Assembly: GCA_965204285.1 (NCBI GenBank)
Contig: OZ241980.1
Coordinates: 4,269,987 to 4,333,986, forward strand
DNA from: Candidatus Poribacteria bacterium
GTDB lineage: Bacteria; Poribacteria; WGA-4E; WGA-3G
Length of the DNA stretch: 64,000 nucleotides
Direction: 5' to 3'
Part shown: positions 11,974-60,569 of the stretch, piece after piece
Layout: every line of letters starts with the position of its first letter
How positions within the stretch are numbered: the stretch's first letter is position 1
Made by a program: the position numbers and the translations under genes
Notes under the pieces: model-generated
What the model saw: only the letters and a program-made list of their open reading frames with translations
Told to the model about the DNA's origin: nothing
Database searches by the model: none

Positions 11974-11999
11974 ACGTCTGTATCGGTTTTTGATAGTGT

Positions 12000-16048: not shown

Positions 16049-16119
16049 TCGTAATCTGCTCCTGTTGATGGGTATTATCTACGAAAGTGGGTTTTATTCA
16101 TTTAAATCCGATCAATTCC

Positions 16120-26648: not shown

Positions 26649-26699
26649 ATATCATTTCTGACTGTAGTTTGATTAACCATTTGTAATTGATTTTGAAAT

Positions 26700-31835: not shown

Positions 31836-32486
31836 ATGTTAAAATTTCAAATTCCCTTAATTATTTTTCTGCTGGGTTGTGTTGTATTTGTTTCGTGTGA
31901 GAGAGCATCTCAAATGTTGGAACCTGCTATGCCGGATATGGATTCCACGGATACTATGGATTCCACGGATACCATGGATACCTCAGACACAGGGATGATG
32001 GATACAGATAAAATGATGGACACCGTTATGGAAGGGGCTCCAGTTGTAATTAACGAATTGATGGCAGATAACGACAATACCGTTCCTGACCCACAAGGCG
32101 ACTATGATGACTGGCTTGAGTTGCATAACCTTACCGATATGGCTTTACCCTTAACAGGACTGTATCTGAGTGACAAAGAGGACAATCCTACAAAATGGGC
32201 ATTTCCTGAAGGTACAGAGATTCCAGCAAATGGGTATTTGATTGTGTGGTTAGATGAAGATCATGATGATGAAAATGCTACAGAAGGACTGCATGCCAAC
32301 TTCAAACTTTCAAAAAGTGGCGAAACGGTCATGCTTGTGAGTCCTGATGCTCAAGGCAATATGGTGCTTGATAGCGTTGCCTTTGGAGAGCAAGAAACAG
32401 ACGTTGCTTATGGACGCTTGCCGAATGGTACCGGTGAATTCCAAGTTGTAGTAGCAACACCAGGTGCGGCAAATTGGGGTGAATAA
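31836..32486 (+). CDS. lipoprotein with Met/Asp/Thr-rich repeat followed by a lamin-tail domain (LTD)
   Basis: Lipobox-like FVSC. MDSTDTMDSTDTMDTSDTGMMDTDKMMDTVM low-complexity tract. LTD-like VVINELMADND...DWLELHNLTD...GLYLSD...GYLIVW. Confidence 0.55.
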   Translation: MLKFQIPLIIFLLGCVVFVSCERASQMLEPAMPDMDSTDTMDSTDTMDTSDTGMMDTDKMMDTVMEGAPVVINELMADNDNTVPDPQGDYDDWLELHNLTDMALPLTGLYLSDKEDNPTKWAFPEGTEIPANGYLIVWLDEDHDDENATEGLHANFKLSKSGETVMLVSPDAQGNMVLDSVAFGEQETDVAYGRLPNGTGEFQVVVATPGAANWGE

Positions 32487-32672
32487 AATCCAAATTGTAA
32501 TCTATATGCTGCAGAAAGATGTTTAGTTCTAAAACTTCTTTCTGAAGTTACAACCAAGTTTAAAAGTGTAAGACTGGGAGATTGAAAGGGATACACTTGT
32601 TGTTCTCTTACATTCTTTCAGTCTTTTCAAATATGGAATTGATTCTCTCATATTCCTAAGGGGATAGATCAA

Positions 32673-35600
32673 TTGATATTTTCAACATATATTGGCTCAA
32701 TACATAAAAAGTCCAAAAGGTTGAATTTGAGACTTACCCAGGTAGGTGGTCTTATTCTTTTTGTGTATATGTTCTTTTTAGGACATCACCAGATGGCAAC
32801 AGCGCAAACTGTTCACATTCCTGACCCAGGTCTCCGCGCTGTTCTTGAATTGGCATTGGATAAAGAGGTAGGTGACGACATCACTCAGGCGGATATGGAG
32901 AGTTTGAAAACACTTCAAGCAGTCAAATCTGGTATTCACGATCTCACAGGTCTTGAGTTCGCAACGAATCTGGAAATCTTAGAGTTTGGACAAAACCAAA
33001 TATCAGATATATCCCCACTTAAAGATTTGATAAAGCTGACAAAACTACGTCTTGGGGACAACCGTGAGATATCAGATGCGTCTCCGCTCAAAAATTTGAC
33101 AAATCTGACGTTCCTGGATATTGATAGTAATCAGGTATCGGATGTGTCTCCGCTCAAAAATTTGATAAATTTGACTTGGTTAGACCTTGACGACAACGGT
33201 ATCTCAGATTTGTCTCCACTTAGCACTTTGACAAAGCTGAGGTACTTGGATCTTGACGGCAACCTTATCTCAGATTTATCTCCACTTAGCACTTTGACAA
33301 ATCTGACATTTCTGGATCTTGATGAAAACGAGATATCAGATTTTTCCATACTCAGTACTTTGATAAACTTGACAGTGCTTGATCTTGAAGGTAACAAGAT
33401 ATCGGATGTGTCCCCCCTCAGCACCTTGATAAATCTGACAGAATTGGATCTACATAACAACAAGATATCGGATGTGTCTCCCCTCAGCAATTTGATAAAC
33501 TTGACAGTGCTTGACCTTCGGGGCAACCAGATATCAGATTTTTCCCCAATCAATGGATTGATAGATAATTTAGTGGAATATTATAACAGCGACCAAACCA
33601 TTCCAACCCATATACCTGAAAATGTGAATCGCGATGGCAACCCAGAACTTGTCCACATTCCAGACCGAGGTCTCCGTACTGCTCTTGAATTCGCATTGAG
33701 CAAAACACCAGTTGAAAACATAACTCAGTCAGATATGGCGAGTTTAAAAGTGCTTCAAGCAAGCAAATGCCGCTATTTAGGATTAGCGGAAGTGGGAGCA
33801 CGAGCGCCAAACCGGTGGGAATGCGGGTTTACTGATGTTACGTCTGGATATAGTATTCAAAATCTAACCGGCCTTGAGTTTGCTACTAATCTGAGAGAGT
33901 TACATCTTGGTCGAAATGAGATATCTGATGTGTCTCCACTCAAAAATTTGACAGAATTAACATACCTTGATCTTGGTAACAACCAGCAAATATCAGATGT
34001 ATCCCCACTCAGAAACTTGACAAATTTGACATTCTTAAACCTTAGATTTAATCGTATATCAGATATATCTCCACTCAAAAATTTGACAAAGCTGATTGAA
34101 CTCGGTCTACGCGGCAATGAATTATCGGATGTGACTCCACTCCGTCCCTTGATAAGCTTGAAGTATCTAAGCGTTAGAGATAATCGTTTATCAGATGTGA
34201 CTCCTTTACGAAACTTGACACAATTGGTAATCCTGAATCTGCGTGAAAATAATATATCAGATGTGACTCCATTCAAAGGTTTGGTGAACTTGACACACCT
34301 TTATCTTAGAGAAAACCAAGTATTGGATGTGTCACCTCTCAGAGATATGATAAATATGAGAGAACTGGACCTTGAAGATAACCAAGTATCAGATGTGACT
34401 CCACTCAGAGATATGACGGAACTGGTATACCTGGATATGGACAGCAACGCAGTACCGGACGTGTCTGCATTAAAAAATATGACAAAACTAAGAATTCTGG
34501 ATTTTTCCGATAACCAGATATCAGATATTTCACCACTCACAGATATGTTATATCTAAGTCGCCTGGATCTTGATGACAATCCAATATTGGATGTGTCACC
34601 TCTCGAAAACTTGACAAGACTGATATGGTTAGATCTGGATGATAACGAGATATTGGATGTGTCACCTCTCAAAAACTTGACAAGACTGACATGGTTAGAT
34701 CTGGATGACAACCAAATATCGGATCTATCTCCGCTTAAAAATTTGATGGAACTGACATACCTGGACCTTGATGGCAACGAGATATCAGATTTATCGCCAC
34801 TCAAAGATATGACAAAACTGGAAGTCTTGGATCTTGATGGTAATAACATATCTGATGTGTCCCCACTCAGTACATTAATAAATCTAATAGAGTTGGATCT
34901 TCACGACAACGAAATATCTGATATATCCGCACTCCAAAATATGACAAATCTGATGGATCTGGATATTGACGACAACCAGATAACTGATGTATCACCTCTG
35001 AAAAATATGATTAAATTAACAATACTTGATGCTGACGGCAACCTGATATTGAATGTGTCCCCACTCAAAGATTTGACAAATCTTACTGAACTGGATCTTC
35101 ACGACAACGAAATATCTGATATATCCGCACTCCAAAATATGACAAAACTCAAAGTGCTTGATCTTCGTGGCAATCAGATATCAGATTTTTCGCCAATCGC
35201 CGGATTGATAGATAATTTAGTAGAATATTATAACAGCAACCAAACATTTCCTGCCTACAAGCGTGAAGATGTGAATCGAGATGGTGTCGTGAATATTACT
35301 GATCTTGTCTTAGCGGCAACTAACTTTGACGATCCTGACTTGACGGTACTTGCTCGGAGAAATCTCTATCCAGATGTTAACAACGACGGTGTTGTGGATA
35401 TCAGAGACTTAGTTCTAATCGCTGCGGAGATAGGTTCGGCTGCTGCTCCAGCACTTAGCAAAAGCTCAATTGAAACATCGAATCTCACTGCCAAAAATCT
35501 CACGCAGTGGATACGGCTTGCCAAGAAACTTGATATGTCCAATCTGCAGATGCAGAAAGGGGTTGCTGTTTTGGAGCAGCTTTTAGCAGTGCTGTCCCAT

Positions 35601-35909
35601 GCAGAGAGGTTACCGAAAGAGACGGCACTATTAATGAACTATCCAAATCCGTTCAACCCAGAGACTTGGATACCTTATCAGCTGGCAAAACCAACAGAGG
35701 TAGTTATTTCTATCCATTCTGTAGATGGGAAGCTTGTTCGGAGGCTGGTGTTAGGGCATTTACCTGTGGGTATATATCGTAGCAAATCTCGCGCTGCACA
35801 TTGGGATGGTCGGAATGAGTCGGGTGAACTTGTGGCAAGTGGTGTCTATTTTTATACACTCACTACTGATAATTTTACGGCTACTCGCAAAATGCTCATT
35901 CAGAAGTAA
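32673..35909 (+). CDS. internalin-like LRR surface protein, in-frame fusion of two paralogous LRR units, with C-terminal dockerin-like pair plus T9SS-type CTD
   Basis: TTG start conserved with paralogs (AAGGGGA RBS). About 33 22-residue LRRs (L..LTNLT.LDL..N.ISDVSPL). A second N-cap (VHIPDRGLRTALEFAL...C...C) at about aa 320. C-terminus DVNRDGVVNITD / DVNNDGVVDIRD then NYPNPFNPETWIPYQL...GVYFYTL. Confidence 0.75.
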   Translation: MIFSTYIGSIHKKSKRLNLRLTQVGGLILFVYMFFLGHHQMATAQTVHIPDPGLRAVLELALDKEVGDDITQADMESLKTLQAVKSGIHDLTGLEFATNLEILEFGQNQISDISPLKDLIKLTKLRLGDNREISDASPLKNLTNLTFLDIDSNQVSDVSPLKNLINLTWLDLDDNGISDLSPLSTLTKLRYLDLDGNLISDLSPLSTLTNLTFLDLDENEISDFSILSTLINLTVLDLEGNKISDVSPLSTLINLTELDLHNNKISDVSPLSNLINLTVLDLRGNQISDFSPINGLIDNLVEYYNSDQTIPTHIPENVNRDGNPELVHIPDRGLRTALEFALSKTPVENITQSDMASLKVLQASKCRYLGLAEVGARAPNRWECGFTDVTSGYSIQNLTGLEFATNLRELHLGRNEISDVSPLKNLTELTYLDLGNNQQISDVSPLRNLTNLTFLNLRFNRISDISPLKNLTKLIELGLRGNELSDVTPLRPLISLKYLSVRDNRLSDVTPLRNLTQLVILNLRENNISDVTPFKGLVNLTHLYLRENQVLDVSPLRDMINMRELDLEDNQVSDVTPLRDMTELVYLDMDSNAVPDVSALKNMTKLRILDFSDNQISDISPLTDMLYLSRLDLDDNPILDVSPLENLTRLIWLDLDDNEILDVSPLKNLTRLTWLDLDDNQISDLSPLKNLMELTYLDLDGNEISDLSPLKDMTKLEVLDLDGNNISDVSPLSTLINLIELDLHDNEISDISALQNMTNLMDLDIDDNQITDVSPLKNMIKLTILDADGNLILNVSPLKDLTNLTELDLHDNEISDISALQNMTKLKVLDLRGNQISDFSPIAGLIDNLVEYYNSNQTFPAYKREDVNRDGVVNITDLVLAATNFDDPDLTVLARRNLYPDVNNDGVVDIRDLVLIAAEIGSAAAPALSKSSIETSNLTAKNLTQWIRLAKKLDMSNLQMQKGVAVLEQLLAVLSHAERLPKETALLMNYPNPFNPETWIPYQLAKPTEVVISIHSVDGKLVRRLVLGHLPVGIYRSKSRAAHWDGRNESGELVASGVYFYTLTTDNFTATRKMLIQK

Positions 35910-36029
35910 GAGATGATTACATCAGGTCTTTTAGTTTGATGTATATGCTGCTTGTTTCTTTCTGAATCCTTGCTTGTAGAAACTTTCAGAATTTCCTGAT
36001 TAACCGAAAACAAAGGAGCAAGAAATATC

Positions 36030-38225
36030 TTGATACTTTTTACATCATATAAAGGATCGCTATCCGAATATTTCTCAAACCGGAATTTAGAATTTACCCG
36101 TGTTGTTATTCTTGTATTTATAGCGTGTGCCTTTTTTGGGGCACCACACCGTATAGCAACCGCACAGACTGTCCACATTCCGGATTCTGATCTTCGCACC
36201 GCTGTTGAGTTAACATTGAACAAAGAGATAGGTGAAGACATCACTCCAGCAGATATGGCAAGTTTGCAAATACTTCAAGCAAGTAACTGTCACTTTTTGA
36301 GGCGATCAGGAGTGCCACGATGGATACCAATACGCCAGAGATGTCCACACAATTTATTAGAATCCCACGTTCAAGACCTAACAGCACTTGAATTCGCAAT
36401 TAATCTGGAAGAGTTACATCTTGCTCATAACCTGATATCTGATGTATCCCCACTCAAAAATATGAAAAAACTGATTGTGTTAGATCTGCACAACAACTTT
36501 ATGATATCTGATGTATCACCACTTAGTGCTTTGACAAATCTTACGCACTTATCTCTTTGGGGCAACCAAGTTTCCGATCCCTCTCCCCTCAGTGTACTAA
36601 AAAACCTCACATATTTATCTCTTGAAAACAATGGAGTATCTGATGTATTCCCACTCAAAGGTTTGACCAACTTGGAGGGACTGGATGTTGAAACCAACCG
36701 AATCTCCGATTTATCCCCGCTCAGAGGTTTGACAAAACTTACGTTCCTTGATTTTGACCAGAATAGAGTATCTGATGTATCACCACTCAAAAACATGACA
36801 GAACTAACACAACTGGATGCATCCGACAACCAGATTTCAGATATATCTCCGCTCAGTGCTATGACAGAAATAACACAGCTGGATATTGACGATAATCAGA
36901 TAATAGATATATCCGCACTCAAAAATATGACAAAAATGTTATGGCTGGATATTGACGGTAACCAGATAATAGGTTTGTCCGCACTCAAAAATATGACAAA
37001 TCTGACAAGGGCGAACATTGATGACAATAACATATCAGATGTGTCCCCACTGGAAAATTTAACAAAATTAGAAAAACTTGATCTTGACCATAACAACATA
37101 TCAGATGTATCACCACTGAAAAATATGGTAAAACTGACATGGTTAGATATTGACGATAACCAGATAATAGATATATCCGCACTCAAAAATATGATAAGGT
37201 TGCAATTGTTGGATTTAGGTGACAATGAAATATTAGATATATCCGCACTCAAAAATATGACGAAATTGACAGAATTAGATCTTAACGACAACGAAATATT
37301 AGATATATCCGCACTCAAAAATATGACAAAACTCAAAGTGCTTGATCTTAACGGCAATCGGATATCAAACATATCCGCACTGAAAAATATGACAAAATTG
37401 ACAGAATTAGATCTTCACGACAACCAGATATCAGATATATCCGCACTCAAAGATTTGACAAATCTCAAAGTGTTGGATCTTCGTGGCAACCATATATCTG
37501 ATTTTTCACCAATCGCAGGATTGATAGATAATTTAGTGGAATATTACAACAGCGACCAAACACTCCCGACCCACAAATTAGAAGATGTGAACCGAGATGG
37601 TATCGTAAATATTACTGATCTTGTTTTAGCCGCATTAAATCTTGACAATCCTGATTTAGCGTCACTCGCTCGGAGAAATCTCTATCCAGATGTTAACAAT
37701 GACGGTGTTGTGGATATCAGGGACTTGGTACTAATCGCTGCAGAGATAGGTTCACCCGCTGCTCCAGCGCTCAGCAAAAACGCGGTTGAAACATCCAACC
37801 TCACTGCTAAAAATCTCACACGGTGGATACGGCTTGCCAAACAGCTTGATACACAAGAGCCGCAAATACAAAGAGGGATTTCTGTTTTAGAACAGTTCTT
37901 AGCAGTTCTGATTGACGTAGAAGTGCCACCAAAAGAGACTGCCCTACTAACCAACTATCCAAATCCGTTCAACCCTGAAACTTGGATACCTTATCAGTTG
38001 GCAAAACCAGCGAAGGTAAATATCTCTATTCATTCTGCGGATGGTAAACTTATTCGTCTGATACCAATGGGGCACTTGCCTGCAGGCACATATCACAGCA
38101 AATCTCGCGCAGCTTATTGGGATGGTCGGAATGACTCAGGTGAGACTGTAGCAAGTGGCGTCTATTTTTATACACTCACTGCAGATGATTTCACCGCTAC
38201 TCAAAAAATGCTAATCCGAAAGTGA
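36030..38225 (+). CDS. internalin-like LRR surface protein with C-terminal dockerin-like pair plus T9SS-type CTD (paralog 2)
   Basis: TTG start and AAAGGAG RBS. Signal peptide and Cys-loop N-cap (NCHFL...RQRCPHN). About 17 LRRs. Same C-terminal module. Confidence 0.75.
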   Translation: MILFTSYKGSLSEYFSNRNLEFTRVVILVFIACAFFGAPHRIATAQTVHIPDSDLRTAVELTLNKEIGEDITPADMASLQILQASNCHFLRRSGVPRWIPIRQRCPHNLLESHVQDLTALEFAINLEELHLAHNLISDVSPLKNMKKLIVLDLHNNFMISDVSPLSALTNLTHLSLWGNQVSDPSPLSVLKNLTYLSLENNGVSDVFPLKGLTNLEGLDVETNRISDLSPLRGLTKLTFLDFDQNRVSDVSPLKNMTELTQLDASDNQISDISPLSAMTEITQLDIDDNQIIDISALKNMTKMLWLDIDGNQIIGLSALKNMTNLTRANIDDNNISDVSPLENLTKLEKLDLDHNNISDVSPLKNMVKLTWLDIDDNQIIDISALKNMIRLQLLDLGDNEILDISALKNMTKLTELDLNDNEILDISALKNMTKLKVLDLNGNRISNISALKNMTKLTELDLHDNQISDISALKDLTNLKVLDLRGNHISDFSPIAGLIDNLVEYYNSDQTLPTHKLEDVNRDGIVNITDLVLAALNLDNPDLASLARRNLYPDVNNDGVVDIRDLVLIAAEIGSPAAPALSKNAVETSNLTAKNLTRWIRLAKQLDTQEPQIQRGISVLEQFLAVLIDVEVPPKETALLTNYPNPFNPETWIPYQLAKPAKVNISIHSADGKLIRLIPMGHLPAGTYHSKSRAAYWDGRNDSGETVASGVYFYTLTADDFTATQKMLIRK

Positions 38226-38342
38226 AGCGAGATGACACAGCAGCATTTTAGTTAGATGTATGCTGCTTGCTTCTGCTTTGAAGCCTTGTGGGTGATACTT
38301 TTCAGCGTTATCCGTTGACCTAAGACATAGGAGTATTATCTC

Positions 38343-40700
38343 TTGAAACTTTTTACATCATATAAGGTATTACTGTCCAAACCTTTCTCAGACCGGAGTG
38401 TAGAATTTACCCGGATTGTTATTCTTGTTTTTATCGCGGGCATGCTTTTTGGGGCATCACACCCGATAGCAATGGCACAGCCTGTCCACATTCCGGACCC
38501 CGGCCTCCGTGCTGCTCTTGAATTAGCACTGGATAAAGAGATAGGTGAGGACATTACCGAGGCTGAGATGGCGAGTTTGAAAATACTTCAAGCAAGTAAC
38601 TGCCGTTTTTTATGGTTGTCGGAAATAGGACACTGGGCTGTAAATAGGCGATGGATATGTCAGTCTGCTGACGATACGTTGGGAACCGGTGATAATATGT
38701 TTGAATATGATATTCGAGATTTGACGGGCCTTGAGTTTGCTACTAATCTGACAGATCTGCATCTTGGCCGGAATCGGATATCTGATATTTCTCCACTCAA
38801 AGACTTGACAAACTTAACATATCTTGATCTCGGACTCAACCGGAGGATATCGGATGTGTCTCCACTTGAAAACTTAACAAACTTGACACACTTGAATCTA
38901 ACAGGTAATCGGATATCGGATGTGTCTCCACTTAAAAACTTAACAAAACTGGTAGACTTGGATCTCCAATACAATCGGATATCGGATGTGTCTCCACTTG
39001 AAAACTTAACAAACTTGATTTTTTTAGATATCCGCAGCAACCAGATATCAGATATATCTCCACTCAAAAATTTGACAAACTTGACACACCTGAGACTTAA
39101 AGAGAACCAAATATTTGATGTTACCCCGCTCAAAAACTTAACAGACTTATCACACCTTAGTCTTCAATCCAATCAGATATCGGATGTGTCCCAACTCACT
39201 TCCTTGGCAAATTTAGTTTATCTGGATCTTGACAGCAACCAGATATCAGATGTATCTGTGCTCAAGAACTTTAAAGAACTGAGACATCTGGATATTTCTG
39301 ACAACCAAGTATCGGATGTATCTCCCCTCCAAGATCTGATATTCCTGGGACGTCTGGATATTGACGATAACCCTCTATCGGATGTGTTCCCGCTCAGAAA
39401 ATTGACTAACCTTGTATTTTTAGATATTGATGATTGTCAGATATTAGATATTTCTCCTCTCAGAGACTTGATCAGGTTGACAGTTTTAGATCTTGATGAT
39501 AATAAGATATCCGATGTATTTCCTCTCAAGGACTTGACAAGATTGGTAGTTTTGGATCTTGATGGCAATGAATTATCGGATATATCTCCACTTGAAAACT
39601 TGACAAGACTGACAGAACTGGATCTTGATGGTAATCAGATATCGGATGTGTCCCCGCTCAAAGTTTTGAGAAATTTAAAACTACTTGATCTTCACAACAA
39701 CCTGATATCTGATTTGGCGCCACTCAGTGACTTAACAAGACTGGCTTTTCTGGATCTTGACGACAATCAGATATTAGATGTGTCTCCACTCAGAAATTTG
39801 ACAAACTTGACGGAACTGGATCTTGATGGTAATCAGGTATCGGATGTAACACCTCTTAAAGATTTAACAAATCTGACAGTGTTAGACCTCCGCGACAATC
39901 AGATATTAGATGTGTCTCCACTCAACGGTTTGGTAAACCTGAAAATCTTAGATATTAGTGACAACCATATATCTGATTTTTCTCCAATTGCCGGATTGAT
40001 AGATAATTTGGAGGAATATTATAACAGCAACCAAACATTTCCTGCCTACAAGCGGGAAGATGTGAACCGCGATGGTGTCGTGAATATTACTGATCTTGTC
40101 TTAGCAGCAACCAACTTTGACGATCCTGACTTGGGCGCACTTGCCCGGATAAACCTCTATCCAGATGTTAACAACGACGGTGTTGTGGATATTAGAGACC
40201 TGGTCCTTATTGCTGCAGAGATAGGTTCCGCTGCTGCACCTACACTTAGCAAAAATTCCATTATAGCAATAGAGCTCACTGCGAAGGACCTCACGCCGTG
40301 GATTGCTCTCGCAAAACAACTTGACACACAAGATATACAGATACAAAAAGGTATTGCTGTATTGGAGCAGCTTTTAGCTGCCCTTACTCTTTCCGAGATT
40401 TTACCGCGAGAGACAGCCCTGTTAGCGAACTATCCAAATCCGTTCAATCCTGAAACGTGGATACCGTATCAGCTGTCAAAACCGGCAGCGGTTACGATAT
40501 CTATTCATTCTGCGGATGGTAAACTTATTCGCTCATTATATATTGGGCGTTTGTCTGCTGGTATCTATCGTAGCAAATCCCGTGCGGCGTATTGGGATGG
40601 TCGAAATGAGTCGGGTGAACTTGTAGCAAGCGGTGTTTATTTTTATACACTCACTGCGGGTGATTATACTGCAACGAAGAAAATGCTTATCAAAAAGTAA
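38343..40700 (+). CDS. internalin-like LRR surface protein with C-terminal dockerin-like pair plus T9SS-type CTD (paralog 3)
   Basis: TTG start and AGGAG RBS. N-cap NCRFLWLSEIGHWAVNRRWIC. About 22 LRRs. Same C-terminal module. Confidence 0.75.
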   Translation: MKLFTSYKVLLSKPFSDRSVEFTRIVILVFIAGMLFGASHPIAMAQPVHIPDPGLRAALELALDKEIGEDITEAEMASLKILQASNCRFLWLSEIGHWAVNRRWICQSADDTLGTGDNMFEYDIRDLTGLEFATNLTDLHLGRNRISDISPLKDLTNLTYLDLGLNRRISDVSPLENLTNLTHLNLTGNRISDVSPLKNLTKLVDLDLQYNRISDVSPLENLTNLIFLDIRSNQISDISPLKNLTNLTHLRLKENQIFDVTPLKNLTDLSHLSLQSNQISDVSQLTSLANLVYLDLDSNQISDVSVLKNFKELRHLDISDNQVSDVSPLQDLIFLGRLDIDDNPLSDVFPLRKLTNLVFLDIDDCQILDISPLRDLIRLTVLDLDDNKISDVFPLKDLTRLVVLDLDGNELSDISPLENLTRLTELDLDGNQISDVSPLKVLRNLKLLDLHNNLISDLAPLSDLTRLAFLDLDDNQILDVSPLRNLTNLTELDLDGNQVSDVTPLKDLTNLTVLDLRDNQILDVSPLNGLVNLKILDISDNHISDFSPIAGLIDNLEEYYNSNQTFPAYKREDVNRDGVVNITDLVLAATNFDDPDLGALARINLYPDVNNDGVVDIRDLVLIAAEIGSAAAPTLSKNSIIAIELTAKDLTPWIALAKQLDTQDIQIQKGIAVLEQLLAALTLSEILPRETALLANYPNPFNPETWIPYQLSKPAAVTISIHSADGKLIRSLYIGRLSAGIYRSKSRAAYWDGRNESGELVASGVYFYTLTAGDYTATKKMLIKK

Positions 40701-40777
40701 TACCAAATCAGGTAATGCCAAACGGTCTTAATTCTGATAAAAATACCTTTTTAAGTGGCTACACTACAAGGAGCAAA

Positions 40778-43408
40778 ATGAGAACATCAATAGTATTATT
40801 TTTCATTTTCTGTCTGCTGTCAACAGCATTAGGTGACATCCAGTTTGAAGAAGTTTCACATCAAGCAGGCATCACCCGCATCGGTGAAAGTTGGGGAAAT
40901 GCATGGGGTGATTTTGACGGTGATGGTTATCTTGACTTATGGGCAACAAACCATAAGCATAAACCGAGCCTTTATCGGAACAACGGTGACGGAACTTTTA
41001 CAGATATTATTGACGAAGTCTGGAACGCGAATCCGCATGCCGATACACATGGTGTCGCGTGGGCAGATTTTGATAACGATGGCGACCAGGATCTAATTGT
41101 GTTATGTGGAAGTGGTGGTGGGAGAACAAGTGTAACTAATCCAACTCAGGATAACCATTTTTACATTAACGAAAATGGTATGCTTATAGAACGGGCGTCT
41201 GAGTTGGGTGTTGTATTTCCACTTTTACGAGGTAGAACACCTCTCTGGTTAGATTGGAATACCGATGGGGAGTTGGATCTTGTTCTAACTGGAATTCTCC
41301 GAATGGATGGGAACGGTGAGTTAGTGGCAGCCTCTTTATTTGAACAGACAACGGGTGGTTTTCAAGATGTAAGCTCTGCTTCAGGTTTTTTGATAGAAAA
41401 AAGTACTTCGTTAGCGCAACTGGTGGATATAACACACGATGGAGTCATGGATTTGGTTGTTCAAGGGAACCCTCATCCGCTGCAAGTATATGACATGTCT
41501 TCAATGTTTTTTAATCCTGTAACAACGCCTAACTTCCCGAAACGTTTTAATGTAAAAGATGCCGTTTATGCCGATTTCAACGGGGATTTGATGTTGGATA
41601 GTTTTCTTGGAAGAGGTGTATCCAGTTCCTACATTGACACACAAAATCCAAATAGAATGGTAGCCGGTATATCTGCCAACATGGAAGAAAAAGGTGTTAG
41701 TTTCAAAGCCGAAGGTGATGTGCATTTTGAAATCTATTCAGCTTGGGCAACTTGGCGTTCTCATCTATTAATTGGTGCCGAAGGACATCAATTAACACAA
41801 TTTGATGGTGAATTTATTGGAACAGACCCGATTCGTAATGTAGCATCTTTCAAATTTGTTCTATCTCCCGATGACCCTAAAGCAGTAGGGCTCAAAAATA
41901 GACCGGAATTTGAAAATCAAAGGATTTATGTCGGTTATGATCATGTGACGGAAAGATGGACCGTCCTGTTTCATACAATGCCTCGTAATAAGATCACTGG
42001 GAATATAACCATGAGTGCGATTATCCATTCATCTCAATCAATATCAGATGTAGAACCCATTAACTTTTCCACATCAGAATTACGGAACAGACCGCAATCA
42101 ATTCTTTTTATTAACGAAGGGAATAAACTTGCATCTACTAACGATGCTTTTGCAAGTGATGTTGTCTCAATTGGTTCAGGTGACTTTGATAACGATATGG
42201 ATGTGGACCTTTACCTCGTACGTTCAAGCAGTGTCGGGAATCTCCCAAATTACCTTTATGAAAACATGGGAGCTGGATCTTTTATTGAACACGATGCAGG
42301 AGGTGGCGCTGTTGCAAGCGAACAAGGAAGAGGACAAAGCGTCGCGGTGGCTGACTATGACAAAGATGGATACCTTGACCTTTTTGTCACGAACGGCAAA
42401 GGAGTGTTCCCCTTTAACAATGGACCTGACCAACTTTTCCGAAATACAGACAGTGGCAACAATTGGCTGCAAATTGATTTGGAGGGAACTGTTTCTAATC
42501 GTGATGGTATCGGCGCGCGACTTTTCGCAACAACACCTGATGGTAAAACTCAATTACGAGAAAACAGCGGAGGTATTCATTGGTGTCAACAGGACCAGAA
42601 ACGTATCCATTTTGGGCTTGCACAGAATGAGAAAGTCAGCGAATTGGTTATCCATTGGCCAAGCGGAATATTCCAAAAGTTGACCAACATAGAAGTTAAT
42701 CAAGTATTACACGTCGTTGAGGATGGGATTCAAACACAGCTTCCAGGGGATGTCAATCGAGATGGGCAGGTAGATATATTGGATCTCCTTGTTGTTGTAT
42801 CGCACTTTGGAGAAGATCCACCTTCAAACGCGCGAAGTGATACCAACAAAGATGGACAAGTAAATCTTGAAGATGTTGTTTGGATTATCAAGATTATTGA
42901 AGAGAACCAGAATAGTAATGCAGCGCCTGTTCAGAGACCTTCAACCCGATCTATTCCGAATACTATGTCAAACGGTATTGCCACGTTGTCGGACACGGAT
43001 ATAGCACTCCTTCATTCCTTTTATCAAAAAATTGAAGAAATGCAAGGGAACTCTACACAAATAGAATTGGTCAAACGATTTTTAAGACATCTACTAATGC
43101 CCGCGGATAATCCGTTGAAAACGAAACTCTATGCGAATTACCCGAATCCTTTTAATCCGGAAACATGGATTCCATATCAACTTGCGGAGGATGTTGAAAT
43201 TACTATACGTATCTATAACACAGCAGGTAAGATTGTAAGGACTCTTTTTTCTGGACATCAAAAATCAGGGTATTACATCACCCGTAGCAAAGCCGCATAT
43301 TGGGATGGTCAGAACGAATTCGGAGAAGCAGTTGCCAGTGGTGTCTATATCTATGAACTGGTAACCCCAAAAACTAAACACACAAAACGACTCGTAGTAA
43401 TAAAGTAA
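40778..43408 (+). CDS. FG-GAP repeat / UnbV_ASPIC (CRTAC1-like) protein with C-terminal dockerin-like pair plus T9SS-type CTD
   Basis: FG-GAP/VCBS motifs (DFDGDGYLDLW, DFDNDGDQDLIV, DYDKDGYLDLFV). ASPIC domain (RDGIGARLFATTPDGKTQLRENSGGIHWCQQDQKRIHFGL...IHWPSG). Then DVNRDGQVDILD / DTNKDGQVNLED and NYPNPFNPETWIPYQLA...GVYIYEL. Confidence 0.75.
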   Translation: MRTSIVLFFIFCLLSTALGDIQFEEVSHQAGITRIGESWGNAWGDFDGDGYLDLWATNHKHKPSLYRNNGDGTFTDIIDEVWNANPHADTHGVAWADFDNDGDQDLIVLCGSGGGRTSVTNPTQDNHFYINENGMLIERASELGVVFPLLRGRTPLWLDWNTDGELDLVLTGILRMDGNGELVAASLFEQTTGGFQDVSSASGFLIEKSTSLAQLVDITHDGVMDLVVQGNPHPLQVYDMSSMFFNPVTTPNFPKRFNVKDAVYADFNGDLMLDSFLGRGVSSSYIDTQNPNRMVAGISANMEEKGVSFKAEGDVHFEIYSAWATWRSHLLIGAEGHQLTQFDGEFIGTDPIRNVASFKFVLSPDDPKAVGLKNRPEFENQRIYVGYDHVTERWTVLFHTMPRNKITGNITMSAIIHSSQSISDVEPINFSTSELRNRPQSILFINEGNKLASTNDAFASDVVSIGSGDFDNDMDVDLYLVRSSSVGNLPNYLYENMGAGSFIEHDAGGGAVASEQGRGQSVAVADYDKDGYLDLFVTNGKGVFPFNNGPDQLFRNTDSGNNWLQIDLEGTVSNRDGIGARLFATTPDGKTQLRENSGGIHWCQQDQKRIHFGLAQNEKVSELVIHWPSGIFQKLTNIEVNQVLHVVEDGIQTQLPGDVNRDGQVDILDLLVVVSHFGEDPPSNARSDTNKDGQVNLEDVVWIIKIIEENQNSNAAPVQRPSTRSIPNTMSNGIATLSDTDIALLHSFYQKIEEMQGNSTQIELVKRFLRHLLMPADNPLKTKLYANYPNPFNPETWIPYQLAEDVEITIRIYNTAGKIVRTLFSGHQKSGYYITRSKAAYWDGQNEFGEAVASGVYIYELVTPKTKHTKRLVVIK

Positions 43409-43420
43409 AAGGCAAAAAAT

Positions 43421-44416
43421 ATGAAAAAAACCTCATTGGTTACTGGTGGAGCAGGTTTTATGGGTGCCCACCTCGTTAATGAGTTACTTCGCGATGAAAA
43501 TCATCAAGTGGTTGCACTTGATGACCTGAGCGGTGGATTTCACGAAAATGTCAATCCAAATGCAACATTTGTTGAAGGTAGTATACTTGATGTTCAACTA
43601 ATAAACCAACTCTGTGAGCAGTATAAATTTAACTATATCTATCATCTTGCGGCGTATGCAGCAGAGGGATTGAGTCACTTTATCAAACGATTTAACTATC
43701 AAAATAACCTTATCGGTAGTGTCAACCTGATAAATGCCGCTGTGAACTATAATGTTAAACGGTTTGTGTTCACCTCTTCCATCGCTGTTTATGGTGAAAA
43801 CCAACTTCCGATGCACGAAGGACTCATACCGATGCCTGAAGATTCCTACGGTATCGCCAAATATGCTGTAGAACAAGAATTGGTCGTTTCTAAACACCTC
43901 TTTGACTTGGATTACACCATTTTCCGACCACATAATGTTTATGGTGAACTTCAGAATATTAGTGATAAATATCGCAATGTTATCGGCATCTTCATGAATA
44001 AAATTATGCAAAATGAACCCTTGGTTATCTTTGGAGATGGAGAGCAGACACGCGCTTTTACACATATCGCAGATGTCGCACCGCATATCGCACACTGCGT
44101 AGATATACCGGAAGCCTCATGTGAAGTTTTCAATGTCGGTTCGGATAAACATGTTTCTGTCAATGAATTAGCACATCTCGTCATGACAGCCATGGAAAAG
44201 GAGGTACCTGTAAAACATCTTCGAGAAAGGGAAGAGGTGAAGCATGCCTATTGCACGCATGAAAAATTCCACAAGGTTTTTGGAGAAACGTCACAGGTTT
44301 CACTTCCAGAAGGTTTAGGTAGGATGACAACATGGGCAAAGTCTGTCGGACCACGGGATTCCACCTTATTTAAGGACATTGAAATTCGCAAAAACCTACC
44401 TGAAGGTTGGAAATAA
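43421..44416 (+). CDS. NAD-dependent sugar epimerase/dehydratase (extended SDR)
   Basis: VTGGAGFMGAHL (GxxGxxG). YGIAKYAVEQ (YxxxK). Confidence 0.8.
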   Translation: MKKTSLVTGGAGFMGAHLVNELLRDENHQVVALDDLSGGFHENVNPNATFVEGSILDVQLINQLCEQYKFNYIYHLAAYAAEGLSHFIKRFNYQNNLIGSVNLINAAVNYNVKRFVFTSSIAVYGENQLPMHEGLIPMPEDSYGIAKYAVEQELVVSKHLFDLDYTIFRPHNVYGELQNISDKYRNVIGIFMNKIMQNEPLVIFGDGEQTRAFTHIADVAPHIAHCVDIPEASCEVFNVGSDKHVSVNELAHLVMTAMEKEVPVKHLREREEVKHAYCTHEKFHKVFGETSQVSLPEGLGRMTTWAKSVGPRDSTLFKDIEIRKNLPEGWK

Positions 44417-44445
44417 TTTTCTCCATCTCTGGATTCCAAATTTGC

Positions 44446-45762
44446 ATGGTGAAAAAACTTCTACGGCACAATACCTTTTGGGTAATGGTGATTACCTTTG
44501 TTGGAATGGGATTAAGTCTACTCACCCGTGCCATCTTGATTCCTAAGCGGTTTGATATCGGCATAACATCAGACGCACTGATTACCGCATTAAAAGTGGT
44601 GTTATTAGTCGATACGGTGGTACGGGAAGGTGCTAAGTTTAGTCTTGTTCCGCTCTTTATCACATGCGAAAAGGAGATGACGGATACAGAATACCTGCGT
44701 TTTACAAATAGTCTACTCAACTTTTTGCTCTGTGTTGGTTTAGGTATATTTATCCTTATTGAACTTTCCGCACCTTGGATTGTGAGGGCATTATCGTCAA
44801 CCATTGATGCGCAGAAGACGACTACACTGTTGCGATTATCTGCCCCATTGATTATCTTTGGATGTGGTAGCACCGTACTGGGTGCGTTGCTGAACAGTCG
44901 GCAGCGTTTTAAGACGGTAGCTCTCCGAAACGCACTCCCTCCCGGTGTCGCCGCTGTAGTATTTTTGTTCCTGTGGCACACTGAAAACTTAGAAAATTGG
45001 ATAGCGATTGCATACACAGGGGGTTTTGTCTTATATTTTGGATGGTTGTGCATCGGGATGTATCGAACGGGACATCGGTTTCAGTTTGAAGGAATTTCCC
45101 TTGATACGCTGCGTTCTTTGAAAAACACGGTTACGCTGCCAACACTCGGTTTCACTGTTCGACAGGTTACGAATCGTTTGTTGGTTGAAGTATCCCTTGT
45201 CTCACAACTCGGAAGTGGGGCAGTTACGCTCTATGAATGCGCTTTCAGGATTTTCTCTGCATTACAGACACTTATCGGGATCAGTATTGCTACAACTGGC
45301 TTGCCGGATATGGCGACACAAGATGTGGAGGATAATCAGCTCAAATTGAGACGCACACTCAAACGGAACATAGCAACAGCATTTTGCATTGCACTTCCAG
45401 TGACATTACTACTTCTTTTGAGCCACACAAAAATTGTCTCGCTTTTGTATACTGGGAATAAATTTGATCACGCGTCAATTCAACAGATCGCGCAAGTACT
45501 CTTCTGGCTCAGCACAGGGATGGTTTTTTCGTGTTTGATACCTGTGTTAAACGCTGGACTCTATGCTCAAAAAGCGTACGGATTGATTTTTAGAAACATG
45601 TTAACGATGGCAGTTTTAAACTTTGCTTTGGCTTATGGATTTGTTAAAGCATGGGGACTTCTTGGTATCGCTTTAGCCGTTTCAGTCACTGCAATTCTTG
45701 CTGTAGCCAATTTGACATATTTACTTCGAAAAACAGGAATAGTCTTGCTACCGAGAGATTGA
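44446..45762 (+). CDS. MOP-superfamily polysaccharide flippase (Wzx/MurJ-like)
   Basis: About 440 aa and about 12-14 TM helices, with typical Wzx/MurJ topology. Overlaps the epimerase stop. Confidence 0.5.
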   Translation: MVKKLLRHNTFWVMVITFVGMGLSLLTRAILIPKRFDIGITSDALITALKVVLLVDTVVREGAKFSLVPLFITCEKEMTDTEYLRFTNSLLNFLLCVGLGIFILIELSAPWIVRALSSTIDAQKTTTLLRLSAPLIIFGCGSTVLGALLNSRQRFKTVALRNALPPGVAAVVFLFLWHTENLENWIAIAYTGGFVLYFGWLCIGMYRTGHRFQFEGISLDTLRSLKNTVTLPTLGFTVRQVTNRLLVEVSLVSQLGSGAVTLYECAFRIFSALQTLIGISIATTGLPDMATQDVEDNQLKLRRTLKRNIATAFCIALPVTLLLLLSHTKIVSLLYTGNKFDHASIQQIAQVLFWLSTGMVFSCLIPVLNAGLYAQKAYGLIFRNMLTMAVLNFALAYGFVKAWGLLGIALAVSVTAILAVANLTYLLRKTGIVLLPRD

Positions 45763-45829
45763 AGCATATTTTTAGTAGAATTGGACTCAACGATTACATT
45801 GAGGACTCGGTTTAATTCTGGACGAATTT

Positions 45830-46810: not shown

Positions 46811-46853
46811 TACGAAAGTTTCGTGTTAGGTATTTCATTCAAGGAGAGTCAGT

Positions 46854-47759: not shown

Positions 47760-47803
47760 TGCTCAAACCAATAAATACTCCTTATCCGATTAGTATGTGA
47801 AAA

Positions 47804-51824: not shown

Positions 51825-51850
51825 TTCATATATTGACCTGTACGTAGAAC

Positions 51851-55548: not shown

Positions 55549-55559
55549 GGGAACGGTTT

Positions 55560-57596: not shown

Positions 57597-57633
57597 AATT
57601 TATTTCATTTTGTTCCTTGGAGGCAGAAAATAC

Positions 57634-59262: not shown

Positions 59263-59416
59263 GTCGTATCCTGATAAGTTCGCAGTTGTTCCTTACGATT
59301 AGAGTGGAATTACGAACTTCAACTAATAAGACATTTTTAATGAAGATTCATGTTGGTTATCGCATCAAAGAAATTGTTTTATAGGCTTATCTTGGTATCA
59401 TTCGGAAGGATTTAAG

Positions 59417-60538: not shown

Positions 60539-60569
60539 AATCTACTAATTTCGGGTAGGATAAAGGATA

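What the first reader, a model, noticed from the sequence alone, without database searches (positions are those of the whole stretch)
32673..40700. Tandem array of three internalin-like LRR genes with conserved TTG starts, long signal peptides and a Cys-loop N-cap
Three consecutive paralogs carry 17 to about 33 copies of a 22-residue LRR (L..LTNLT.LDL..NQISDVSPL).

Each starts at TTG behind a Shine-Dalgarno sequence. Each encodes a conserved, unusually long N-region (M(K/I)LFTSYK...EFTR(V/I)VILVFIA...ATAQ(T/P)VHIPDPGLR) and a Cys-X(n)-Cys capped N-terminal domain.

The 5' flanking DNA of paralogs 2 and 3 is also conserved (36000-36030 vs 38310-38345). The unit therefore duplicated together with its regulatory region.

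LRR number differs between copies, the signature of repeat-mediated expansion and contraction. This could generate surface variation.
Basis: seen in the sequence. Interest (0 to 1): 0.6.

Follow-up and report, generated by a model that had tools for sequence, protein, structure and literature searches.

The report
Tandem secreted LRR genes in Poribacteria
Three neighbouring genes in a sponge-symbiont (Poribacteria) genome encode secreted, internalin-like leucine-rich-repeat proteins; they are real and have some unusual details, but they belong to a very large and already recognised protein class and show no sign of rapid repeat variation.

Summary
The three ORFs are real: g1 32673-35909, g2 36030-38225, g3 38343-40700. 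All start at a TTG behind a Shine-Dalgarno-like site and encode 22-residue LRRs.

Corrections to the finding:
- LRR counts are 29, 17 and 19, not up to 33.
- g1 is an in-frame fusion of two modules (9 + 20 LRRs). Its first cap has no Cys loop.

All genome relatives come from Candidatus Poribacteria MAGs, apart from a few labelled only "uncultured bacterium" and one short contig binned as Rhodothermaceae. The array sits in a conserved locus (Hen1-Pnkp-NosD-like-GT-LTD-[LRR genes]-FG-GAP-epimerase). LRR gene number there varies from 1 to 3 between species.

An independent assembly at about 90% identity reproduces g1, g2 and the start of g3 with identical repeat numbers. Fourteen of fifteen g2 orthologues, down to 65% identity, keep 17 LRRs. 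dN/dS is 0.2-0.26. This is slow duplication, fusion and deletion, not a variation device.

The closest solved structure is Listeria InlA, but these are not true internalins. Abundant LRR proteins with T9SS-type tails were reported in Poribacteria in 2014, so this is a new member of a known kind.

Family-wide oddities remain: a conserved TTG start, a ~45-residue signal peptide, the Cys-loop insertion, and an unresolved export route.

The parts
32673..35909 (+). g1: 1078-aa two-module LRR protein. Order: signal peptide, cap A, 9 LRR, C-cap, junction, cap B with Cys loop, 20 LRR, dockerin-like module, helical hairpin, CTD.
   Evidence: orthologue of identical length in L001
32658..32675 (+). g1 Shine-Dalgarno-like AAGGGGA, 8-nt spacer and TTG start
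   Evidence: TTG conserved in L001
32673..32804 (+). g1 presequence, aa 1-44, ending MATA|Q
   Evidence: sequence; family alignment has A at -1 in 62/62 and Q at +1 in 56/62
32808..32978 (+). g1 cap A: internalin-type helical cap without a Cys loop
32979..33575 (+). g1 LRR array A: 9 units of 22-23 aa
33618..33665 (+). g1 fusion junction: the truncated dockerin start ENVNRDG, then NPEL, then the next module's VHIPD cap start
   Evidence: conserved in L001; separate genes at this position in L003, L006 and L011
33651..33899 (+). g1 cap B, with Cys366-x17-Cys384 loop at 33768-33824
33900..35222 (+). g1 LRR array B: 20 units
35223..35906 (+). g1 C-terminal cassette: C-cap plus dockerin-like module (to 35447), helical hairpin (35448-35636), T9SS type-A CTD (35637-35906)
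   Evidence: Pfam Dockerin_1 24.0 bits (cut-off 22.9), FlgD_ig 28.0 (27); TIGR04183 35.1 (23)
35910..36029 (+). g1-g2 spacer, homologous to the g2-g3 spacer (69.8% identity); contains AAGGAG at 36013-36018
36030..38225 (+). g2: 731-aa LRR protein (17 LRR)
   Evidence: AF2 model with mean pLDDT 83
36030..36164 (+). g2 presequence aa 1-45 (n-region 1-24, hydrophobic core 25-37, IATA|Q). No other in-frame ATG/GTG/TTG before the core.
36165..36413 (+). g2 cap, with Cys87-x17-Cys105 loop at 36288-36344
   Evidence: loop pLDDT 48-53
36414..37538 (+). g2 LRR array: 17 units
37539..38222 (+). g2 C-terminal cassette: dockerin-like module (to 37763), helical hairpin (37764-37952), CTD (37953-38222)
   Evidence: AF2 model of the cassette; Foldseek
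38226..38342 (+). g2-g3 spacer; contains AGGAG at 38329-38333
   Evidence: 92% identical to L001
38343..40700 (+). g3: 785-aa LRR protein (19 LRR)
38343..38477 (+). g3 presequence aa 1-45, ending IAMA|Q
38478..38756 (+). g3 cap, with Cys87-x18-Cys106 loop at 38601-38660
38757..40013 (+). g3 LRR array: 19 units
40014..40697 (+). g3 C-terminal cassette: dockerin-like module (to 40238), helical hairpin (40239-40427), CTD (40428-40697)
40715..43408 (+). Context: FG-GAP/ASPIC-UnbV protein carrying the same dockerin + hairpin + CTD cassette. It starts 14 nt after the g3 stop and is the conserved right-hand border of the LRR hotspot.
31836..32486 (+). Context: lamin-tail-domain protein, the conserved left-hand border of the LRR hotspot

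Best explanation
g1-g3 are paralogous exported proteins of a Candidatus Poribacteria (sponge-associated) bacterium.

Proposed route and function:
1. Each is made from a weak TTG start with an unusually long (~45 aa) Sec-type signal peptide, cleaved after an invariant A-x-A to expose Gln (inferred).
2. The mature protein starts with an internalin-type helical cap, usually carrying a two-Cys loop insertion that probably forms a disulfide.
3. Next comes a 17-20 unit SDS22/internalin-class LRR solenoid. Its concave face is a ladder of Asp residues.
4. A short C-cap follows, then a dockerin-like double calcium loop, a two-helix hairpin and an Ig-like T9SS type-A sorting domain.
5. The C-terminal cassette directs the protein across or onto the outer membrane, and perhaps docks it to cohesin-bearing partners (inferred). 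The LRR solenoid is displayed there to bind a host or matrix ligand (inferred by analogy with internalins and with other eukaryote-like proteins of sponge symbionts).

The array arose by tandem duplication of gene plus spacer at a conserved chromosomal hotspot. Occasional in-frame fusion (g1) or truncation followed. It evolves under purifying selection with stable repeat numbers, so it is a gene-family expansion and not a fast switching device.
For: Shown:
- ORFs, TTG and SD. The TTG is conserved at the homologous position in L001, L003, L004, L006 and L011, with ATG at that position in L011_9899 and L006_6806.
- Presequence layout: A at -1 in 62/62, a small residue at -3, Q at +1 in 56/62. 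In most of the 111 full-length homologues the cap starts at residue 44-52, with the mode at 47.
- LRR class and fold: PF12799, InlA at 1e-89, AF2 LRR pLDDT above 90 and Foldseek InlA hits.
- Only two Cys occur in mature g1 and g2, both bounding the loop. The concave positions are mostly Asp and mature pI is 4.4-4.8.
- Cassette: Dockerin_1, FlgD_ig and TIGR04183 score above cut-off, except that g3's Dockerin_1 (22.4) falls just under its 22.9 cut-off. The same cassette is on the FG-GAP protein and on two Tat-signal sulfatases in the window. It is found on at least 6786 database proteins.
- Taxon: 80 best genome loci, nearly all titled Poribacteria MAGs; a few are unnamed 'uncultured bacterium' MAGs and one is a 5-kb contig binned as Rhodothermaceae.
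- Conserved synteny with 1-3 LRR genes between the LTD and FG-GAP genes.
- Fusion, truncation and intact states of the first gene in different genomes.
- Purifying selection, dN/dS 0.20-0.26.
- Fixed repeat number in orthologues.

Literature: LRR (PF12799) and TIGR04183 tails are abundant in Poribacteria (PMC3909097). ELPs are enriched in sponge-associated Poribacteria (PMC8163846).
Against: - No signal-peptide predictor was available, so cleavage is inferred from rules.
- The export route is uncertain. T9SS is regarded as confined to the FCB superphylum (PMC12421860). Kamke et al. found no T9SS structural genes in poribacterial single-cell genomes (PMC3909097). None is visible in this 64-kb window.
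- Pfam's own Por_Secre_tail model scores below its threshold (21-24 against 27).
- The best fold match of the CTD is the FlgD Ig domain, ahead of the PorZ and PorU CTDs.
- No ligand, expression or localisation data exist.
- The Cys loop is modelled with low confidence.
Confidence: 0.7

Rival explanations
1. One reading: the array is a contingency locus in which slippage or recombination among the 66-nt repeats expands and contracts LRR number quickly, producing surface (antigenic or ligand) variation.
For: - LRR numbers differ between paralogues: 9+20, 17 and 19.
- Across the family they range from 9 to 19 per module.
- Some adjacent units are 83-85% identical, which hints at old in-situ duplications.
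- dS is strongly mosaic along g1, from 0.02 to 0.99, indicating recombination or gene conversion.
Against: - The ~90%-identical strain L001 has exactly the same unit counts, 29 and 17.
- 14 of 15 g2 orthologues at 65-90% identity have 17 units.
- The best unit pair is only 91% identical and the mean is 59%, so there is little substrate for slippage.
- dN/dS on concave-face codons is 0.14, lower than on other variable positions at 0.31.
Confidence: 0.08
2. The array, or the long g1, is an assembly artefact: collapse, expansion or chimeric joining of repeats.
For: The DNA is repetitive, and the related contig L001 ends inside g3, showing that assemblers struggle here.
Against: - An independent assembly from another ENA analysis reproduces g1 codon for codon in length, including the fusion junction. 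It also reproduces g2, both spacers and the g3 start.
- No long exact repeats are present.
- All reading frames are intact and under purifying selection.
Confidence: 0.02
3. The LRR proteins are components of a cohesin-dockerin surface assembly, a cellulosome-like scaffold. In it, LRR, FG-GAP, WD40 and sulfatase modules are docked together through their dockerin modules. The LRR proteins serve as targeting or binding subunits rather than stand-alone adhesins.
For: - The dockerin-like module is shared by the LRR, FG-GAP and two sulfatase genes in the window.
- Proteins with Cohesin (40-48 bits against a cut-off of 24.1) plus the same dockerin + CTD cassette exist. One lies next to WD40 and LRR genes on a 4.78-Mb contig.
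Against: - No cohesin gene was found in the parts of the window I annotated.
- The taxon of the cohesin-bearing contig is not established.
- Dockerin_1 scores of the LRR genes sit at threshold (22.4-24.9 against 22.9).
- Dockerin-like modules occur widely outside cellulosomes (my own knowledge).
Confidence: 0.2
4. The proteins are lipoproteins or signal-anchored membrane proteins rather than cleaved secreted proteins. A Cys sits in the hydrophobic segment of g2 and of 69% of homologues.
For: Cys at the position of g2 residue 33 in 43/62 aligned homologues; the residue before it is A or G in 26/62.
Against: - g1 and g3 lack this Cys.
- The hydrophobic core continues for four more strongly hydrophobic residues after it.
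- The downstream A-x-A|Q is far better conserved: A at -1 in 62/62.
Confidence: 0.07

Closest known systems
Listeria monocytogenes internalin A/B/H (class 1 internalins)
   Same: - Sec signal, helical N-cap with the pattern ...L..L.A....I.dL.GlE...NL..L.L, and 22-residue SDS22-class LRRs.
- Best sequence match (1e-89) and best fold match (TM 0.65-0.79, 32-35% identity).
- Presumed ligand binding on the concave face.
   Different: - No Ig-like inter-repeat domain after the LRR, and no LPXTG or GW anchor.
- NCBIfam internalin models score 259-493 bits against cut-offs of 1050-1600.
- The host is Gram-negative-type.
- Extra Cys-loop insertion in the cap.
- C-terminal dockerin + hairpin + T9SS-type CTD.
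- Acidic Asp-ladder concave face.
Eukaryote-like LRR proteins of sponge symbionts, specifically Poribacteria (Kamke et al. 2014, PMC3909097; Robbins et al. 2021, PMC8163846)
   Same: Same phylum, same Pfam family (PF12799), frequent signal peptides, and the TIGR04183 Por-type C-terminal domain. The neighbouring VCBS/FG-GAP and ASPIC/UnbV genes were also noted there.
   Different: Those papers give domain counts only. They do not describe:
- the tandem hotspot and the A+B fusion;
- the conserved TTG start and the ~45-aa presequence;
- the Cys-loop cap insertion;
- the dockerin + hairpin part of the cassette.
A full-text search for Poribacteria + dockerin found nothing relevant.
T9SS cargo proteins with LRR passengers in Bacteroidota, e.g. 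Porphyromonas gingivalis InlJ and Tannerella forsythia BspA (from my own knowledge, not checked here)
   Same: Architecture logic: N-terminal Sec signal, LRR passenger, C-terminal Ig-like type-A CTD. The CTD matches TIGR04183 above its cut-off and resembles the PorZ, PorU, NucA and RemZ CTDs in fold. Gln at +1 of the signal peptide, as in the Bacteroidetes Q-rule (PMC5837995).
   Different: - The host phylum lies outside the FCB group, where T9SS is known (PMC12421860).
- T9SS genes have been reported missing in Poribacteria (PMC3909097).
- A dockerin module and a helical hairpin precede the CTD.
- BspA-type LRRs belong to a different LRR class.
Extended signal peptide region (ESPR) of autotransporters and two-partner-secretion proteins (from my own knowledge)
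   Same: A conserved ~20-25 residue extension sits in front of an otherwise normal signal peptide, on large repetitive beta-solenoid passengers.
   Different: No sequence similarity and no PF13018 hit; different secretion context. The functional analogy is speculative.

Membership tests
Class 1 internalins (Listeria type) | Helical N-cap followed by 22-residue LRRs of the SDS22/internalin class | tested here: met
   PF12799 at 242-399 bits; phmmer InlA 1e-89; AF2 plus Foldseek top hits are InlA
Class 1 internalins (Listeria type) | Ig-like inter-repeat (IR) domain fused to the C-terminal end of the LRR | tested here: not met
   No LRR_adjacent or IR family among the Pfam hits. In the model the last LRR is followed by a short helix/strand cap and then the dockerin-like helices.
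Class 1 internalins (Listeria type) | Whole-protein score above the NCBIfam internalin cut-offs; LPXTG or GW cell-wall anchoring | tested here: not met
   NF033189, NF033188 and NF033190 score 209-493 bits against cut-offs of 1050-1600. The C-terminus is a TIGR04183 domain, not LPXTG or GW.
T9SS type-A CTD cargo | C-terminal ~75-90-residue domain matching TIGR04183 above its cut-off | tested here: met
   35.1, 34.8 and 36.2 bits against a cut-off of 23, at the extreme C-terminus. Pfam PF18962 scores below its own cut-off (21-24 against 27), while PF13860 FlgD_ig scores above (28-33 against 27).
T9SS type-A CTD cargo | Ig-like beta-sandwich fold of the CTD | tested here: inconclusive
   AF2 cassette model: beta strands with pLDDT 67-92. 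Foldseek best hit is the FlgD Ig domain (2e-4), then the PorZ (6e-3) and PorU (1e-2) CTDs, then the NucA/RemZ CTDs in the translocon (0.04).
T9SS type-A CTD cargo | N-terminal Sec (or Tat) signal peptide | tested here: met
   By rule-based inspection only: n-, h- and c-regions with an invariant A-x-A|Q. The sulfatases carrying the same cassette have a TRRDFL Tat motif.
T9SS type-A CTD cargo | T9SS machinery (SprA/Sov, PorV, PorU, PorK-N) encoded in the same genome | not testable with these tools
   Only 64 kb of the genome is available and none of these genes was seen in it. Kamke et al. found none in poribacterial SAGs (PMC3909097).
Type I dockerin | Two tandem Ca-binding loop-helix repeats (DxNxDGxxxxxD) | tested here: met
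   DVNRDG(I/V)VNITD ... DVNNDGVVDIRD in all three proteins. PF00404 scores 24.0, 24.9 and 22.4 against 22.9, so g3 falls just under. Helices are modelled at pLDDT 90-95.
Type I dockerin | A cognate cohesin partner | tested here: inconclusive
   No cohesin among the window ORFs scanned. Cohesin + dockerin + CTD proteins P0203 and P0215 exist in related metagenomic genomes. Binding is untested.
Eukaryotic-type LRRNT cysteine cap (PF01462) | Cysteine-cluster cap domain N-terminal to the LRR | tested here: not met
   No PF01462 hit. There are only two Cys, and they bound a 17-18-residue loop inside an internalin-type helical cap. The loop is absent from g1 cap A and from 40 of 111 homologues.
Sponge-symbiont eukaryote-like LRR proteins (Poribacteria) | LRR (PF12799) protein encoded by a Poribacteria genome, often with a signal peptide and a TIGR04183 tail | tested here: met
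   Nearly all of the 80 best genome loci are titled Poribacteria MAGs. Named homologues are 'leucine-rich repeat domain-containing protein' or 'T9SS type A sorting domain-containing protein [Candidatus Poribacteria bacterium]'. Description in PMC3909097.
Extended signal peptide region (ESPR, PF13018) | Match to the ESPR motif at the N-terminus | tested here: not met
   No such Pfam hit at E <= 0.01; the resemblance is one of layout only.

The most novel reading that the evidence does not exclude
Poribacteria may use a surface-display route of their own. The ~215-residue cassette (dockerin-like module + helical hairpin + T9SS-type-A-like Ig domain) is carried by thousands of LRR, WD40, FG-GAP, sulfatase and cohesin proteins. 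It would be recognised by machinery other than the canonical FCB-type T9SS, and it would link the cargo into cohesin-dockerin assemblies on the cell surface.

Within that system, the LRR family's conserved weak TTG start and ~45-residue extended signal peptide would be selected features. They would throttle synthesis and export of long solenoid proteins.
Probability: 0.15. Interest if true: 0.7.

Novelty: new member of a known kind. Interest (0 to 1): 0.35.

Why it matters
**Why it is largely ordinary.** LRR 'eukaryote-like' proteins are prime candidates for how sponge symbionts are recognised or spared by their host, and Poribacteria carry hundreds of them. This locus adds no new kind of protein.

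**What it does offer:**
- It gives a clean, syntenic example of how the repertoire grows: tandem duplication with the spacer, in-frame fusion and C-terminal truncation at one hotspot.
- It shows that repeat number is stable once fixed.
- It defines family-wide features that could be tested: a conserved TTG start, a ~45-aa presequence ending A-x-A|Q, a two-Cys loop in the cap, and an Asp-ladder binding face.
- It sharpens a question left open in 2014. Thousands of poribacterial proteins carry a T9SS-type sorting domain, here always preceded by a dockerin-like module and a helical hairpin. How they are exported in a phylum where no T9SS has been reported is unknown.

Tried and rejected
- **Exact-sequence look-up.** g2 and the neighbouring glycosyltransferase are not on record.
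- **Rfam.** No match in the whole window.
- **Promoter and terminator scan.** Nothing convincing in the two spacers. Promoter-like sites are fewer than in shuffles, 21 against 35.
- **Structured 5' leader around the TTG starts.** z-scores of -0.26 to +0.20, so rejected.
- **Lipoprotein reading of the conserved Cys in the hydrophobic core.** Rejected.
- **LRRNT cap.** Rejected, with no Pfam hit.
- **Diversifying selection on the concave face.** Rejected for the one close strain pair available, omega 0.14.
- **Recent repeat expansion.** No unit pair is more than 91% identical.
- **Search with g1 for further copies of the A+B fusion.** No other close full-length fused orthologue was listed. Even the L001 copy was missed by the word filter, so absence elsewhere is not established.
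- **Better model of the Cys loop.** Not attempted; the loop stayed at pLDDT about 50 in the full-length model.
- **Literature searches.** Poribacteria + type IX / Por secretion / dockerin returned only Kamke 2014 as relevant.

Full report

Three + strand ORFs occupy 32673-35909 (g1, 1078 aa), 36030-38225 (g2, 731 aa) and 38343-40700 (g3, 785 aa).

Each opens with TTG as the first possible start:
- g1: AAGGGGA at 32658-32664, 8 nt upstream.
- g2: AAGGAG at 36013-36018, 11 nt upstream.
- g3: AGGAG at 38329-38333, 9 nt upstream.

Pfam finds LRR_4/LRR_8 throughout.

Splitting the proteins into 22-residue units, and counting with an HMM built from those units, gives 29 units in g1 (9 + 20), 17 in g2 and 19 in g3.

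The antisense ORFs inside the arrays are shadows of the repeats.

**2.

g1 is not a longer version of g2 and g3. It is two modules in one frame.
- After nine LRRs and a normal C-cap (ISDFSPINGLIDNLVEYYNSDQT) comes the first six residues of a dockerin loop (NVNRDG).
- Four residues (NPEL) follow, and then the start of a second cap (VHIPDRGLRTALEF...).
- The first cap lacks the Cys loop. The loop in g1 lies at Cys366-Cys384 in the second cap.

In g1 only the layout is shared.

- Two Ca-loop/helix repeats, DVNRDG(I/V)VNITD...DVNNDGVVDIRD. Pfam Dockerin_1 scores 24.0, 24.9 and 22.4 against a cut-off of 22.9.
- A two-helix hairpin.
- An Ig-like domain beginning NYPNPFNPETWIPY. It passes NCBIfam TIGR04183 'T9SS type A sorting domain' (34.8-36.2 bits against 23) and Pfam FlgD_ig (28-33 against 27). 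It does not pass Pfam Por_Secre_tail (21-24 against 27).

**3. Not an artefact**

The 66-nt units average 59% identity. The best pair reaches 91%, and there are no long exact repeats.

A contig from a different ENA assembly (L001, ERZ21862620) carries the same gene order:
- a g1 orthologue of exactly 1078 codons from the same TTG, with the same junction;
- a g2 orthologue of 731 codons from the same TTG. The gene caller had chosen an upstream start, hence '753 aa';
- the g2-g3 spacer and the first ~200 nt of g3, again with TTG.

**4. Organism and locus**

A genome scan with g2 returned 597 confirmed stretches. The 80 best are nearly all titled Candidatus Poribacteria MAGs from sponges, corals and sponge grounds. 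A few are labelled only "uncultured bacterium". One is a 5-kb contig binned as Rhodothermaceae from a sponge sample.

The window's neighbours form a block that is syntenic in at least eight other loci. The block runs Hen1, Pnkp, a NosD-like beta-helix protein, a glycosyltransferase, a lamin-tail-domain protein, then an FG-GAP/ASPIC protein and an epimerase.

Between the LTD and FG-GAP genes the number of LRR genes differs:

| Locus | LRR genes in the gap |
|---|---|
| L002, L005 | 1 |
| L003, L011 | 2 |
| L006 | 2, plus 1 beyond FG-GAP |
| window | 3 (four modules) |
| L001 | the same three as far as the contig reaches (it ends inside g3) |

The state of the first, loop-less 'module A' gene also differs:
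- L011: complete, with its own CTD.
- L003 and L006: truncated just after the dockerin.
- Window and L001: fused in frame to the next gene.

The site is therefore a hotspot of tandem duplication, deletion and fusion over species-level time.

**5. Duplication with the spacer**

The g1-g2 and g2-g3 spacers align over their full length at 69.8% identity. Shuffles give a mean of 49.6% and a maximum of 56.6%. The region upstream of g1 does not align.

Flanking coding DNA is more conserved: 81% at the 5' ends and 78-81% over the 3' 750 nt.

So the unit did duplicate together with its spacer, but the spacer shows no extra conservation that would mark a regulatory element. No sigma-70-like promoter, intrinsic terminator or stable RNA fold was detected there.

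**6. Start codon and signal peptide**

g2 and g3 have no other in-frame ATG, GTG or TTG upstream of the hydrophobic core.

Family members from other genomes (L001, L003, L004, L006, L011) were compared. By my reading, about 11 of the 14 long-presequence copies have TTG preceded by AGGAG at the homologous position. Three have ATG, two of them at that position. NCBI's own annotation of P0096 also starts there.

In the 62-sequence alignment the presequence has this layout:

| Part | Residues (g2 numbering) | Feature |
|---|---|---|
| n-region | 1-24 | loosely conserved M-(K/R)-(L/F)-F-(T/A)-x-(Y/T) head |
| hydrophobic core | 25-37 | 13 residues |
| c-region | 38-45 | small residue at -3; A at -1 in 62/62 |
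| +1 | 46 | Q in 56/62 |

The cap motif starts at residue 44-52 in most of the 111 full-length homologues, with the mode at 47.

This is an unusually long Sec-type signal peptide with an A-x-A|Q site. Cleavage itself is inferred, because no predictor or proteomic data were available.

A Cys in the middle of the core (43/62) could suggest a lipobox. I rejected that reading because the core continues after it, and because g1 and g3 lack it.

Gln at +1 recalls the Bacteroidetes Q-rule (PMC5837995). The FG-GAP neighbour does not show it.

**7. Structure**

An AF2 model of g2 built on 62 homologues has mean pLDDT 83, with values above 90 through the cap helices and all 17 LRRs. The Cys loop stays at 48-53.

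The best PDB matches are InlA, the Chlorobium Roco LRR and InlF, by sequence (1e-89) and by fold (TM up to 0.79 on the target).

The Cys loop is a ~29-residue insertion between '...LQA' and 'IxDLTGLEF' of an otherwise canonical internalin cap. It occurs in two subtypes, C-x17-C and C-x18/19-C. It is missing from 40 of 111 homologues and from g1 cap A. It is not an LRRNT domain.

The loop cysteines are the only Cys in mature g1 and g2, which fits a single disulfide.

The concave-face positions are mostly Asp (LDLDDN), most strongly in the C-terminal two-thirds. Mature pI is 4.4-4.8.

A separate model of the C-terminal cassette gives confident dockerin helices and hairpin (pLDDT 90-95) and a beta-sandwich CTD. 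Its best matches are:
- the FlgD Ig domain (2e-4);
- the PorZ and PorU CTDs (6e-3 and 1e-2);
- cargo CTDs bound in the T9SS translocon (0.04).

**8. Evolutionary dynamics**

Between the window and L001, dN/dS is 0.26 for g1 and 0.20 for g2.

| LRR codon class | dN/dS |
|---|---|
| scaffold positions | 0.15 |
| concave-face positions | 0.14 |
| other variable positions | 0.31 |

There is therefore no sign of diversifying selection on the binding face.

Repeat number is identical between the two strains. It is 17 in 14 of 15 g2 orthologues at 65-90% identity.

dS is strikingly uneven:
- g1 cap B 0.02, LRR B 0.10, LRR A 0.42, CTD 0.99.
- g2 has no synonymous change in its first 45 codons, against a gene-wide dS of 0.235.

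This points to mosaic recombination or gene conversion among paralogues or strains. I did not resolve it further.

**9. The cassette and the export question**

The dockerin + hairpin + CTD cassette is also present on the FG-GAP/ASPIC gene (40715-43408). Two tandem sulfatases with Tat motifs (53467-55548 and 55491-57596) carry it too.

Searched alone, the cassette finds at least 6786 proteins. Their passenger domains include LRR, WD40, LDL-receptor B, Big_1 and cohesin. The named ones are 'T9SS type A sorting domain-containing protein [Candidatus Poribacteria bacterium]'.

Kamke et al. (PMC3909097) reported three relevant points:
- PF12799 LRRs, VCBS and ASPIC/UnbV domains are abundant in Poribacteria.
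- Many eukaryote-like proteins there carry TIGR04183.
- No Por/T9SS structural genes were found, 'a potential secretion pathway ... remains to be revealed'.

T9SS is described as confined to the FCB superphylum (PMC12421860). I could not search complete poribacterial genomes for the machinery, so the route is open.

**10. Verdict**

What works like what:
- The N-terminal two-thirds works like an internalin LRR domain.
- The tail looks like a T9SS cargo signal preceded by a dockerin.

Membership:
- Not a Listeria-type internalin. There is no IR domain and no LPXTG or GW anchor, and the scores fall far below the NCBIfam cut-offs.
- A member of the poribacterial eukaryote-like LRR class, which is already known.
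- T9SS cargo status is met at the domain level. It is untested at the system level.

What is mildly new:
- the hotspot dynamics;
- the A+B fusion;
- the family-wide TTG start and long presequence;
- the Cys-loop insertion;
- the fixed dockerin-hairpin-CTD cassette.

Interest is moderate to low (0.35). Novelty: a new member of a known kind.

Noticed in passing
window 53467-55548 and 55491-57596 (+): Two tandem sulfatases (PF00884 + SGSH_C) have twin-arginine signal motifs (FTRRDFL). They carry the same dockerin + helical hairpin + NFPNPFNPETWIPY CTD cassette as the LRR genes. The cassette therefore serves both Tat and Sec cargo.
   Followed up: partly
window 40715-43408 (+): An FG-GAP/VCBS + ASPIC/UnbV protein with the same cassette starts 14 nt after the g3 stop. 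It is the conserved right border of the LRR hotspot in L002, L005, L006, L007, L011 and L027.
   Followed up: partly
L081 6001-7050 (P0203); also P0215: Small proteins combine a cohesin domain (40-48 bits against a cut-off of 24.1) with the same dockerin + CTD cassette. In L081 the gene lies between a WD40 gene and a 753-aa LRR gene on a 4.78-Mb circular contig. This hints at cohesin-dockerin pairing among these surface proteins. The taxon of the contig was not established.
   Followed up: partly
window 36030-36164 vs L001 10067-10201; g1 regions vs L001: Synonymous divergence between the two strains is very uneven. There are zero synonymous changes in the first 45 codons of g2, against a gene-wide dS of 0.235. 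In g1, dS is 0.02 in cap B but 0.99 in the CTD. This suggests gene conversion or recombination mosaics; it remains unexplained.
   Followed up: partly
window g1 aa 45, g2 and g3 aa 46; alignment A4: Gln follows the predicted signal-peptidase site in 56 of 62 family members, after an invariant Ala. This resembles the Q-rule described as specific to Bacteroidetes (PMC5837995). The neighbouring FG-GAP protein does not follow it.
   Followed up: partly
window 25239-29264 (+): A bacterial Hen1 (TIGR04074, 725 bits) and Pnkp (TIGR04075, 1414 bits) RNA-repair pair lies immediately upstream of the surface-protein block. It is syntenic with that block in several Poribacteria genomes.
   Followed up: no
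window 31836-32486 (+): A lamin-tail-domain protein has a lipoprotein-like N-terminus (LLGCVVFVSC) and a short acidic MDSTDT/MDT repeat tract. It is the conserved left border of the LRR hotspot.
   Followed up: no
window 43421-52852 and 57610-61229 (+): Cell-envelope polysaccharide genes surround the surface-protein genes. They include an epimerase, a Wzy-like O-antigen ligase, a sulfotransferase, Wzi, a group-1 glycosyltransferase and a sugar transferase.
   Followed up: no
window 10066-17613 (-): A minus-strand cluster encodes DUF6785/DUF6784, a POTRA-domain protein, a BatA/VWA protein and a transglutaminase-like protein. Its function is unknown and it was not examined further.
   Followed up: no
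L003 8524-9912, L006 8887-10146: In these genomes the loop-less 'module A' LRR gene ends shortly after its dockerin module, with no hairpin or CTD. These would be LRR proteins lacking the sorting domain, in contrast to the intact copy in L011 and the fused copy in the window.
   Followed up: partly
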